DNA of 63,989 nt, filler included, from Diploschistes diacapsis (GCA_023645945.1; 4 parts of 4 records of this genome joined end to end with filler, not necessarily neighbours in it); one strand, 5' to 3'; counted from the whole stretch's first letter, positions 45,015 to 45,441 are shown. Numbers and translations are program-made. Notes: generated by a model from the sequence alone, not told the origin.

Positions 45015-45441
45015 CTATGCCTTGCCAGCCCCGGTCTCGGTGGCGTAGGCCGTCTTGTAGAAGTCCACAAAATCCTCCTTAGGAGCACGTTTCTCAGCGC
45101 TGTCGTCGCTCGCATAAGCTGTCTTGTAGAAGTCCACAAAGTCCTCTTTGGGAGCACGCTTTTCGCTATCGTCGCTGGGGTAGGCCGCCTTGTAGAAGTC
45201 CACAAAGTCTTCCTTGGGAGCACGTTTTTCGCCAGCATAGGCTTTCTTGTAGAAGTCGACAAAGTCCTCCTTGGGAATGCGGGCTTCGACTGGGCTCACA
45301 GCTTGGAAGATATCCGTTAGTACAGGCACGAGTACTTTGTATGGATAAAAGGGCGTGCGAACCACCACCAGCAGCAGGAGTTGGGGCTGCATTCGCAACA
45401 AGGGCTATATAAGCCAGGATGGCAGTCGTTGTGAACTGCAT
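45015..45441 (-). CDS. KEX2-processed repeat protein / dikaritin RiPP precursor (exons 45441-45363 and 45301-45015; 121 aa)
   Basis: Signal peptide MQFTTTAILAYIALVANA. 61-nt intron GTTCGC...TACTAAC...AAG. Four repeats of (A/I)PKEDFVDFYK[K/A/T]AY separated by acidic spacers ending in EKR. Confidence 0.92.
45040..45278 (-). repeat. Four tandem coding repeats (57-69 nt) of the RiPP precursor
   Basis: Repeated cttgtagaagtc(c/g)acaaa(g/a)tc motif on the + strand. Confidence 0.9.

What the first reader, a model, noticed from the sequence alone, without database searches (positions are those of the whole stretch)
45015..45301. Precursor encodes three variant cores FYK-[K/A/T]-AY resembling the asperipin-2a core FYYTGY
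Spliced protein: MQFTTTAILAYIALVANA-APTPAAGGAVSPVEAR-IPKEDFVDFYKKAYAGEKR-APKEDFVDFYKAAYPSDDSEKR-APKEDFVDFYKTAYASDDSAEKR-APKEDFVDFYKTAYATETGAGKA. PKEDFVDFYK and AY are invariant, one position varies (K, A, T, T), and the followers are variable. The hexapeptide F-Y-K-T-A-Y aligns with asperipin-2a FYYTGY, but has Lys where asperipin has its bridging Tyr3. The ED motif before FVDFY recalls the ED preceding ustiloxin/phomopsin cores. Inference: a small congener library with two Tyr available for aryl-ether cross-links, possibly to Lys, Phe, Val or Asp carbons, which would be a new ring topology. The core boundary (FYKxAY versus FVDFYKxAY) cannot be decided from sequence alone.
Basis: partly seen in the sequence, partly recalled or inferred. 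Interest (0 to 1): 0.8.

Follow-up and report, generated by a model that had tools for sequence, protein, structure and literature searches.

The report
Lichen-fungus cyclic-peptide precursor gene cluster
A small secreted repeat protein with four near-identical peptide units lies between two copper-oxidase genes of the kind fungi use to make cross-linked peptide toxins, so it is probably an uncharacterised member of a known and very common class of fungal peptide pathways, here in a lichen-type fungus.

Summary
On the minus strand, a two-exon gene (exon 2 = 45015-45301) encodes a signal-peptide-like N-terminus and four KR-separated units with an invariant PKEDFVDFYK-x-AY block (x = K, A, T, T). 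Across the four copies, 7 of the 12 invariant codons carry synonymous changes and none carries an amino-acid change.

The genes immediately on both sides are DUF3328/UstYa genes (PF11807), each with a membrane helix and two HxxHC motifs. They are only 26% identical to each other. The rest of the window looks like housekeeping genes. This is therefore a minimal three-gene ustiloxin-type ("dikaritin") RiPP cluster. The best named relatives are Teloschistaceae lichen fungi.

The asperipin-like core reading is only partly supported. In 16 repeat units from 6 precursors, F-V-D-F-Y is the constrained element: both Phe and the Tyr are 16/16, and Val is 15/16. The second Tyr is present in 13/16 units and is replaced by a Cys-containing tail in one relative. 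The asperipin cluster partners (reductase, transporter) are absent.

The cross-links, core boundary and expression remain untested. This is a new member of a known kind. About 1,758 similar orphan clusters are already catalogued, so interest is moderate.

The parts
45363..45441 (-). Precursor gene exon 1: ATG at 45441; predicted signal peptide MQFTTTAILAYIALVANA (45388-45441) plus APTPAAGG
   Evidence: Mean Kyte-Doolittle hydropathy is 1.89 over residues 4-16, with small residues at A-N-A before the predicted cut. No SignalP was run. The donor could lie 3 or 6 nt upstream and stay in frame.
45302..45362 (-). Precursor intron, 61 nt, GTTCGC...TACTAAC...AG, phase 1
   Evidence: It has a perfect TACTAAC branch-point box upstream of the AG. 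The donor is atypical. No RNA data are available.
45015..45301 (-). Precursor exon 2 (stop at 45015-45017): pro-region AVSPVEAR, then four repeat units separated by three KR dibasic sites
   Evidence: Homologues: E 1.6e-10 and 1.0e-8, and 3.2e-9 to 8.9e-4.
45237..45275 (-). Unit 1 conserved block PKEDFVDFYKKAY
45180..45218 (-). Unit 2 conserved block PKEDFVDFYKAAY
45114..45152 (-). Unit 3 conserved block PKEDFVDFYKTAY
45045..45083 (-). Unit 4 conserved block PKEDFVDFYKTAY
42823..43607 (-). UstYa-A (DUF3328) gene: exon 1 43101-43607, 59-nt intron, exon 2 42823-43041 including the stop. Membrane helix VIAALLLLLITFNYQLIAA; motifs HALHC and HIGHC
   Evidence: Pfam PF11807, E 6.6e-10, 39.7 bits against a cut-off of 25. 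Gene model, confirmed by full-length relatives that read ...GYIAQHLMCAADSTIEPP.... 28 homologues found.
46286..47349 (+). UstYa-B (DUF3328) gene, 298 aa. Exons 46286-46571, 46640-46768, 46820-46950 and 46999-47349. Hydrophobic segment LVPRLSTALNIILLLASIV; motifs HQLHC (177) and HQRHC (215); Cys 229 and 257
   Evidence: Pfam PF11807, 55.8 and 99.3 bits against a cut-off of 25. The splice model is stop-free. It is 58% identical to P0004 and 65.5% to P0003, and the second and third exon junctions align without gaps to both relatives; at the first junction P0004 carries seven extra residues.
45442..46285 (.). 844-bp intergenic region shared by the divergently transcribed precursor and UstYa-B genes (putative common promoter)
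   Evidence: Follows from the gene models. No regulatory motif was tested.
40554..42681 (+). S9-family serine peptidase gene, convergent with UstYa-A (141 bp between the stops). Cluster membership is doubtful
   Evidence: Peptidase_S9, E 1.5e-42. The N-terminus MAIIPSPKVASYGTWES... has no hydrophobic signal and no Pfam hit.

Best explanation
This is a minimal three-gene ustiloxin-type (dikaritin) RiPP cluster of a lichen-type ascomycete.

The precursor is a 119-121-aa secreted Kex2-processed repeat protein carrying four cores.

Proposed route (all steps inferred):
1. The signal peptide is removed in the ER.
2. Kexin cuts after the three KR sites in the Golgi, and some protease cuts after the single Arg of VEAR.
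3. The two flanking DUF3328/UstYa enzymes act on the units. These are membrane-anchored, lumen-facing, binuclear-copper, O2-dependent oxidases. They oxidatively functionalise a C(sp3)-H of the core, most likely forming aryl-alkyl ether cross-link(s). The links would run from the invariant Tyr of F-V-D-F-Y, and from the second Tyr where present, to a beta-carbon of another invariant residue. A Phe beta-carbon is the precedent from asperipin-2a.
4. Exopeptidases trim the variable 3-5-residue acidic N-terminal spacer and the acidic follower.

The output would be three congeners differing at one position (K:A:T = 1:1:2 by gene dosage). Comparison with homologues places the constrained core at FVDFY(K x A Y), not at FYKxAY alone.

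Shown here: the gene structure, the repeats, purifying selection on the peptide, the two flanking UstYa genes with their catalytic motifs, and the homologues.

Inferred: secretion, Kex2 processing, cyclisation, which residues are linked, the division of labour between the two oxidases, and expression.
For: (1) Repeats with peptide-level selection. 7 of 12 invariant codons carry synonymous differences and 0 of 12 carry an amino-acid change. The pattern occurs 4 times against 0.02 expected.

(2) Both immediate neighbours are PF11807 proteins above the gathering score: 39.7, 55.8 and 99.3 bits against 25. Each has a hydrophobic N-terminal helix and an HxxHC...HxxHC pair. These are the features that define the copper site of DUF3328 enzymes (PMC12435403, abstract and passages).

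(3) The two are divergent paralogues. UstYa-A is 26% identical over 133 aa, E 8e-8, to P0004, the 58%-identical Caloplaca relative of UstYa-B. This recalls the UstYa/UstYb pair, both of which are essential in ustiloxin biosynthesis (PMC6514808 passage).

(4) Survey statistics. 22% of 7,878 KEPs have DUF3328 genes nearby, peaking at the adjacent position. Pheromone-type KEPs almost never do. Tyr is enriched in such repeats, 65.6% against 38.2% (PMC7329392, abstract and passages).

(5) Five homologous precursor fragments keep F-V-D-F-Y. In 16 units from 6 precursors (this one and those five): F0 16/16, V1 15/16, D2 13/16, F3 16/16, Y4 16/16, and an acidic or Asn residue before F0 in 16/16.

(6) Probable conserved synteny. 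Precursor homologue P0002 and UstYa-A orthologue P0015 (63% identical) each sit on a single ENA contig of the same length, 12,766 nt. P0015 groups with the window protein in the tree with support 84/96.

(7) A second organism label and a rock metagenome hold all three genes, mostly at about 95-99% identity.

(8) DUF3328 enzymes are shown in vitro to make the Tyr-O to Phe-C-beta ether of asperipin-2a (PMC12186524 passage).
Against: No RNA run holds the locus, so neither splicing nor expression is shown.

The 5' splice donor GTTCGC is atypical.

The signal peptide was judged by inspection and hydropathy only.

The window holds no tyrosinase, methyltransferase or transporter, and no regulator near the cluster; the only Zn2Cys6 hit lies about 39 kb away at 3088-3741. 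The only peptidase nearby lacks a signal peptide.

DUF3328 enzymes also hydroxylate, halogenate, desaturate and isomerise (PMC12435403), so adjacency does not prove cyclisation.

The first unit is preceded by AR, not KR.

Genomic context of 4 of the 5 precursor homologues could not be seen. The P0002/P0015 link rests only on equal contig length.

One relative lacks the second Tyr. One unit (FVGFY) has Gly at position 2.
Confidence: 0.7

Rival explanations
1. This is a plain Kex2-processed repeat protein. The units are secreted as linear, unmodified peptides (signal, pheromone-like or antimicrobial), and the UstYa genes next door act on something else.
For: The architecture is the same as alpha-factor-type KEPs. 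74% of catalogued KEPs are neither DUF3328-linked nor annotated as pheromones (PMC7329392 legend passage). The ESM Atlas feature search listed an MF_alpha cluster third, at the weak score of 0.76 (a lead only). No tailoring or transport genes other than the two UstYa are present.
Against: UstYa genes lie on both immediate sides, among otherwise housekeeping-type genes. Putative pheromone KEPs lack DUF3328 neighbours in 98.6-100% of cases (PMC7329392 passages). There is no other candidate substrate gene in the island. A UstYa-A orthologue probably shares a contig with a precursor homologue in a relative.
Confidence: 0.12
2. It is a RiPP precursor, but the UstYa enzymes install non-cyclising modifications such as beta-hydroxylation, desaturation or halogenation. 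The products would be linear modified peptides rather than macrocycles.
For: DUF3328 enzymes are documented as hydroxylases (CctR), halogenases (ApnU) and desaturases in phomopsin biosynthesis (PMC12435403 and PMC10512285 passages). Two divergent paralogues could have two different chemistries.
Against: For all RiPP-type KEP pathways characterised so far, a DUF3328 enzyme performs a Tyr- or Phe-based cyclisation: ustiloxin, phomopsin, asperipin-2a, victorin and epichloecyclin (PMC9233826 and PMC10540207 passages). The invariant aromatic F..FY block fits that chemistry.
Confidence: 0.13
3. It is a decaying or silent relic: an unexpressed repeat ORF beside UstYa genes that are no longer used.
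For: No RNA holder was found. The splice donor is atypical. A dispersed repeat sits between the precursor and UstYa-A.
Against: The reading frames of all three genes are intact. There are synonymous-only differences across the four repeats. The locus is conserved in two other read sets and in more distant relatives.
Confidence: 0.03

Closest known systems
Asperipin-2a pathway of Aspergillus flavus (AprA precursor, AprY DUF3328 cyclase)
   Same: Both are small clusters built around a Kex2-type repeat precursor and DUF3328 oxidase(s). Both have an aromatic-rich core containing F-Y and a C-terminal Y, and no tyrosinase. The Tyr-O to Phe-C-beta ether chemistry is a plausible model (PMC6514808 and PMC12186524 passages).
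   Different: The asperipin core is FYYTGY in about 8-aa repeats, made by one AprY together with reductase AprR and transporter AprT (PMC6514808 and PMC7329392 passages). Here the units are 22-26 aa, the constrained block is FVDFYKxAY with Lys at the third position of the FY... hexapeptide, there are two divergent UstYa genes, and no reductase or transporter is in the window. Sequence relatedness of these UstYa proteins to AprY was not tested, because no AprY sequence was available.
Ustiloxin / phomopsin pathways (UstA/PhomA with UstYa+UstYb / PhomYa-e)
   Same: Both have a signal peptide plus KR-separated repeated cores. More than one DUF3328 paralogue lies beside the precursor. Tyr is the likely cross-linking residue (PMC6514808, PMC7329392 and PMC9233826 passages).
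   Different: Those cores begin with Tyr (YAIG, YVIG, YVIP) in 13-14-aa repeats and link Tyr to Ile at i+2. Those clusters also carry a tyrosinase, a methyltransferase, S41 peptidases and a regulator. None of these is present here, and the core has no Ile.
Epichloecyclin pathway (GigA, DUF3328 GigB, methyltransferase GigC, KexB)
   Same: Unit length is similar (27-mers there, 22-26 here), with a core plus an acidic or variable follower. Both have a conserved Lys and a conserved Tyr in the core, and imperfect repeats giving several congeners from one gene (PMC10540207 passages).
   Different: The epichloecyclin core (INFK*IPYT type) begins directly after the kexin site. That cluster has a Lys methyltransferase and its own kexin. 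Here a 3-5-residue spacer precedes the core, and neither gene is in the window.
Orphan KEP + DUF3328 clusters catalogued by Umemura 2020, and lichen RiPP clusters of the 2025 Lecanoromycetes survey
   Same: It meets the operational definition: a KEP with a DUF3328 gene in the vicinity and Tyr in the repeat. About 1,758 such KEPs are known (PMC7329392). The taxon fits the lichen survey (PMC12048977).
   Different: The lichen survey reported no repeated-core precursor in its two conserved clans (PMC12048977 passages). Here the precursor is a canonical repeat protein. No Xanthoria, Caloplaca, Gyalolechia, Cladonia or Letharia genome is in Umemura's strain table (0 hits for those names, and Umbilicaria is present).

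Membership tests
DUF3328 / UstYa copper oxidases (the two flanking genes) | Match to Pfam PF11807 above the gathering score | tested here: met
   UstYa-A exon 1 scores 39.7 bits. UstYa-B exons score 55.8 and 99.3 bits. The cut-off is 25.
DUF3328 / UstYa copper oxidases (the two flanking genes) | HxxHC(x)nHxxHC motif, the binuclear copper site (PMC12435403) | tested here: met
   UstYa-A has HALHC at residue 113 and HIGHC at 159. UstYa-B has HQLHC at 177 and HQRHC at 215.
DUF3328 / UstYa copper oxidases (the two flanking genes) | Single N-terminal transmembrane helix, with the catalytic domain in the lumen | tested here: met
   The best 19-residue Kyte-Doolittle windows score 2.18 for A (residues 18-36) and 1.92 for B (residues 54-72). 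This is hydropathy only; no topology predictor was run.
DUF3328 / UstYa copper oxidases (the two flanking genes) | Conserved Cys residues after the second motif, forming the dimer and intramolecular disulfides | tested here: inconclusive
   Each protein has two Cys after the second HxxHC: B at 229 and 257, and A in ...LMCAAD... and ...HQCRD.... Correspondence to CctR C190, C213, C229 and C240 was not aligned.
DUF3328 / UstYa copper oxidases (the two flanking genes) | Copper- and O2-dependent activity as a dimer | not testable with these tools
   This needs biochemistry.
Ustiloxin-type RiPP (dikaritin) precursor / KEP | N-terminal ER signal peptide | tested here: inconclusive
   MQFTTTAILAYIALVANA has a hydrophobic core (mean KD 1.89) and small residues at -3 and -1. 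No SignalP was available.
Ustiloxin-type RiPP (dikaritin) precursor / KEP | Tandem repeated units separated by Kex2 (KR) sites | tested here: met
   There are four units and three KR sites. The first unit follows AR.
Ustiloxin-type RiPP (dikaritin) precursor / KEP | DUF3328 gene(s) close to the precursor gene | tested here: met
   They are the immediate neighbours on both sides, 1.4 kb and 0.84 kb away.
Ustiloxin-type RiPP (dikaritin) precursor / KEP | Tyr in the repeated core, conserved in homologues | tested here: met
   The first Tyr is 16/16 and the second is 13/16 in units of 6 precursors.
Ustiloxin-type RiPP (dikaritin) precursor / KEP | Original Ding et al. cluster set: tyrosinase, methyltransferase, transporter or peptidase (as quoted in PMC12048977) | tested here: not met
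   None of the 46 ORFs scanned with Pfam hits a tyrosinase, methyltransferase or transporter family. Only an S9 peptidase without a signal peptide is present. Later work accepts clusters that lack these (PMC12048977 passage).
Ustiloxin-type RiPP (dikaritin) precursor / KEP | Side-chain cross-linked (cyclic) product | not testable with these tools
   This needs MS and NMR.
Asperipin-2a family specifically | Core FYYTGY in about 8-aa repeats | tested here: not met
   FYK[K/A/T]AY shares 3-4 of 6 residues, and the units are 22-26 aa. Reference values come from PMC6514808 and PMC7329392 passages.
Asperipin-2a family specifically | Four-gene cluster: precursor, one ustY homologue, isoflavone-type reductase, transporter | tested here: not met
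   There are two UstYa genes, and no reductase or transporter hit in the window.

The most novel reading that the evidence does not exclude
This would be the first ribosomal cross-linked peptide from a lichen-forming fungus, and a new dikaritin scaffold. The core would be a nonapeptide, FVDFYKxAY, carrying two aryl-ether (or other Tyr-derived) bridges. Each bridge would be installed by one of the two divergent UstYa paralogues, or by a UstYa-A/UstYa-B heterodimer. The ring connectivity would be unlike ustiloxin, phomopsin, asperipin, victorin or epichloecyclin. The one unconstrained position (K/A/T) would give a natural three-member congener set, and relatives would swap the second ring for a Cys-containing tail.
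Probability: 0.3. Interest if true: 0.6.

Novelty: new member of a known kind. Interest (0 to 1): 0.4.

Why it matters
Only a handful of dikaritin-type fungal RiPPs have known structures, while about 1,758 KEP+DUF3328 loci are orphan (PMC7329392, PMC10512285). A 2025 survey of lichen RiPP clusters could not find repeated-core precursors in its conserved clans (PMC12048977). This locus is a clean, minimal case from a lichen-type fungus: one precursor, two oxidases, and no other tailoring genes.

That makes it a compact target for heterologous expression. It could show what a UstYa pair does on an F/Y/K-rich core, and whether the two paralogues divide the work. DUF3328 enzymes were only recently shown to be binuclear copper C-H oxidases.

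It does not open a long-standing question, and a specialist would not be surprised that it exists.

Tried and rejected
- **RNA evidence:** no RNA holder is listed for the locus, so splicing and expression could not be checked.
- **Whole genome:** none is held for this window.
- **Context of the precursor homologues:** Two scans of JGI metagenome contigs found no relative. The single-protein scan had 285 pattern matches and 0 confirmed. The 4-sequence alignment A2 had 482 pattern matches and 0 confirmed.
- **Cluster look-up:** the homologues returned no names or accessions. All are singleton ENA or Logan entries.
- **Read laying:** the differences table was cut before the precursor, and contigs break inside the repeat. 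No statement on allelic variation of the cores is possible.
- **Literature strings:** 0 papers hold FYKTAY, FVDFYK, FYKAAY, FYKKAY or DFVDFY. There were 0 occurrences of five such strings in the three held supplements of PMC7329392. I did not confirm that those tables contain repeat sequences, so that blank is weak.
- **Ustiloxin and phomopsin precursor sequences:** they are not searchable as text. The 'ED before the core' remark therefore stays unverified.
- **The two Chiang et al. 2025 papers on ApnU and AprY:** neither is held. The exact asperipin ring connectivity beyond 'Tyr-O to Phe-C-beta' was not seen.
- **PDB sequence search:** searches with orthologues P0004 and P0022 gave nothing meaningful (best E 0.16 for P0004, none for P0022).
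- **ESM Atlas:** the best score was 0.78, below the 0.9 level, so it is a lead only.
- **Earlier-findings look-ups:** nothing was returned.
- **S9 peptidase:** considered as the cluster protease and set aside. It has no signal peptide, so it is unlikely to meet a secretory-pathway substrate. It is not excluded.
- **Rejected hits:** P0006, P0008 and P0009 were dropped as unrelated repeat proteins, judged by eye from their sequences. They were left out of the 16-unit count.
- **Complex and structure prediction:** not run.

Full report
**1. Observation**

The minus strand of 45015-45441 holds a two-exon gene.
- Exon 2 (45015-45301, stop included) is exactly the interval given. It reads AVSPVEAR, then four units: IPKEDFVDFYKKAYAGEKR, APKEDFVDFYKAAYPSDDSEKR, APKEDFVDFYKTAYASDDSAEKR and APKEDFVDFYKTAYATETGAGKA.
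- Exon 1 (45363-45441, ATG at 45441) reads MQFTTTAILAYIALVANAAPTPAAGG.
- The 61-nt intron (45302-45362) starts GTTCGC, has a perfect TACTAAC box, and ends AG. Two alternative in-frame donors would only remove one or two Gly.

The repeat is not a chance feature.
- TRF reports period 66, 2.9 copies and score 267.
- The degenerate FVDFYK pattern occurs 4 times against 0.02 expected.

Four frames are open across the array, so an open frame alone proves nothing. The coding frame is identified in two ways.
- Codon pattern: of the 12 invariant codons of the 13-codon block, 7 differ synonymously among the copies and 0 change the residue. Only codon 11 varies (K, A, T, T). By simple arithmetic, seven variable sites all falling on third positions has a probability of about (1/3)^7.
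- Protein-level homologues (section 3).

**2.

Pfam scans of 46 long ORFs across the window show that both immediate neighbours of the precursor are UstYa/DUF3328 genes.
- **UstYa-A** (42823-43607, minus, two exons) has a hydrophobic helix VIAALLLLLITFNYQLIAA and the motifs HALHC and HIGHC. Full-length relatives confirm its exon junction.
- **UstYa-B** (46286-47349, plus, four exons, 298 aa) has HQLHC and HQRHC. It is 58-65% identical to two annotated lichen proteins, and its second and third exon junctions align to them without gaps; at the first junction one of them, P0004, carries seven extra residues.
- UstYa-A is only 26% identical to P0004, the 58%-identical Caloplaca relative of UstYa-B, so the two flanking genes are divergent paralogues.
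- UstYa-B and the precursor are divergently transcribed from an 844-bp spacer.

The other Pfam hits in the window are families that look like general cell functions:
- DNA ligase, CAF1, Sas10, a Dis3L2-like RNase, catalase and RNase T2;
- homoserine dehydrogenase, a RING-variant protein, a Crb2-like Tudor/BRCT protein, Hid1, isochorismatase and TAF6.

No tyrosinase, methyltransferase, reductase, transporter or nearby regulator was hit.

An S9 peptidase gene ends 141 bp from the end of UstYa-A. Its N-terminus has no signal sequence, so I do not count it as part of the pathway.

**3. Relatives**

*Precursor.* Two searches were run with the exon-2 product.
- The word-index search of 5.8 billion proteins gave 2 hits among 505 candidates.
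- The exhaustive phmmer search of 1.84 billion representatives gave 7 hits at E <= 1e-3.
- I accept five proteins as homologous precursor fragments (P0001, P0002, P0005, P0007, P0010). I dropped three (P0006, P0008, P0009) as unrelated repeat proteins, judged by eye.
- All five are unnamed metagenome-assembly ORFs that begin inside the second exon. This is what a prokaryotic gene caller would produce on a fungal gene.

Anchoring all 16 units of the six precursors on F-x-x-F-Y gives the following:

| Position | Conservation |
|---|---|
| -1 | D, E or N in 16/16 |
| F0 | 16/16 |
| V1 | 15/16 |
| D2 | 13/16 |
| F3 | 16/16 |
| Y4 | 16/16 |
| second Tyr | 13/16 |

- The spacer between KR and F0 varies from 3 to 5 residues.
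- The three units of P0005 lack the second Tyr and read FV[DN]FY-x-T-C.
- P0007 has an extra Tyr (FYYKKAY).

The constrained element is therefore FVDFY.

*UstYa-A.* It has 28 homologues at E <= 1e-3 among 158 candidates.
- Named ones are Teloschistaceae and related lichen fungi at 46-51% identity: Calogaya, Letrouitia, Xanthoria, Xanthocarpia and Haloplaca.
- One Penicillium herquei protein also appears. It falls in a separate clade.
- The window protein groups with P0013 and P0015, with support 84/96.
- P0015 and precursor homologue P0002 each lie on one ENA contig of 12,766 nt. They are probably on the same contig, which would mean conserved linkage. This is an inference from equal length only.

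*UstYa-B.* Its best named relatives are Blastenia crenularia and a Caloplaca MAG, at 70% and 68% over the last exon.

*Read sets.* Contigs of a lichen metagenome, a second organism label and a rock metagenome cover all three genes, mostly at about 95-99% identity or better.

**4. Mechanism**

Established knowledge:
- DUF3328 proteins are membrane-anchored, lumen-facing dimers whose HxxHC...HxxHC motifs bind two coppers. They oxidise C(sp3)-H bonds with O2 (PMC12435403, abstract and passages).
- AprY makes the Tyr-O to Phe-C-beta ether of asperipin-2a (PMC12186524 passage).
- UstYa and UstYb are both essential for the ustiloxin macrocycle (PMC6514808 passage).
- In a survey of 1,461 fungal genomes, 22% of 7,878 KEPs have DUF3328 genes nearby, peaking at the adjacent gene. 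Pheromone-type KEPs almost never do (PMC7329392, abstract and passages).

On that basis I take the locus to be a minimal ustiloxin-type RiPP cluster. The proposed steps are signal-peptide removal, kexin cleavage at the KR sites, oxidative cross-linking by the two UstYa enzymes, and trimming of the acidic spacer and follower.

Which atoms are joined is not known. The one hypervariable position (K/A/T) is unlikely to carry a bridge. The invariant Phe, Val, Lys and Tyr residues are the likelier partners. All steps after translation are inferred.

**5. Comparison with known systems**

- **Works like** the asperipin, ustiloxin and epichloecyclin pathways.
- **Generic class:** it meets the operational definition of a KEP with adjacent DUF3328 genes and a conserved Tyr.
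- **Asperipin family:** it does not meet the specific features (core, 8-aa repeats, single oxidase plus reductase plus transporter).
- **Ustiloxin/phomopsin set:** it does not meet these either (Tyr-first core with Ile at i+2, tyrosinase, methyltransferase, S41 peptidases).
- **Epichloecyclins:** it shares unit length and conserved Lys and Tyr. It lacks the methyltransferase and kexin genes, and its core does not follow the kexin site directly (PMC10540207 passages).

**6. Novelty and verdict**

No paper in the library holds the core strings. The 2025 lichen RiPP survey found no repeated-core precursor in its two conserved clans (PMC12048977 passages). This therefore looks like an undescribed member.

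Orphan clusters of exactly this kind number in the thousands, so the finding is a new member of a known kind. Interest is about 0.4.

The boldest reading not excluded is a new bicyclic scaffold, the first lichen-fungal RiPP, with one ring per oxidase. I put that at about 0.3.

**Limits**
- No RNA data and no whole genome were available.
- No genomic context could be seen for four of the five homologous precursors.
- No sequences of characterised UstYa enzymes were available for a phylogeny.
- The two 2025 papers on AprY and ApnU, and the figures that show the known precursor sequences, could not be read.

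Noticed in passing
window 43960-44290: A dispersed repeat lies between UstYa-A and the precursor. Several contigs of all three read sets end or start here with unrelated loose ends. Summed depth rises from 82 to 155-245 in X1. An ORF here (43907-44254, minus, 115 aa) has no Pfam hit.
   Followed up: partly
window 40554-42681 (+): An S9-family serine peptidase gene is convergent with UstYa-A, with 141 bp between the stops. 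Its N-terminal half has no Pfam hit and no signal peptide. Together with the DUF3328 genes it would probably trigger antiSMASH's fungal-RiPP rule as described in PMC12048977.
   Followed up: partly
P0005 (metagenome protein, 87 aa): A relative of the precursor has units FVDFY-TTC, FVNFY-STC and FVDFY-KTC, with Cys in place of the second Tyr. It also has a degenerate last unit that keeps KKAY. This hints at a different second modification in that lineage.
   Followed up: partly
P0007 (metagenome protein, 104 aa): A relative has an extra Tyr (FVDFYYKKAY), giving the same F-Y-Y start as the asperipin-2a core. One of its units has Gly at position 2 (FVGFY).
   Followed up: no
P0027, Penicillium herquei hypothetical protein: A Eurotiomycete UstYa protein is 54% identical to UstYa-A over 65% of the query. 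It falls in a separate, well-supported clade with unnamed metagenome proteins (98/95 with P0026).
   Followed up: partly
window 44957-45412, both strands: Four reading frames (two per strand) stay open across the repeat array. An internal ATG in the exon-2 frame (MQPQLLLLVVV...) gives an unspliced alternative ORF, which a prokaryotic gene caller would pick.
   Followed up: yes
window 47664-49067 (+): A 467-aa open frame next to UstYa-B has no Pfam hit. Its N-terminal half is acidic and of low complexity. Its function was not pursued; by composition it does not look like a tailoring enzyme.
   Followed up: no
window 183-1307 (-) and 3088-3741 (-): There is a GH16 plus chitin-binding (Crh-like) cell-wall enzyme gene and a Zn2Cys6 regulator fragment at the far left of the window. 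They lie about 39 kb or more from the cluster and are probably unrelated to it.
   Followed up: no
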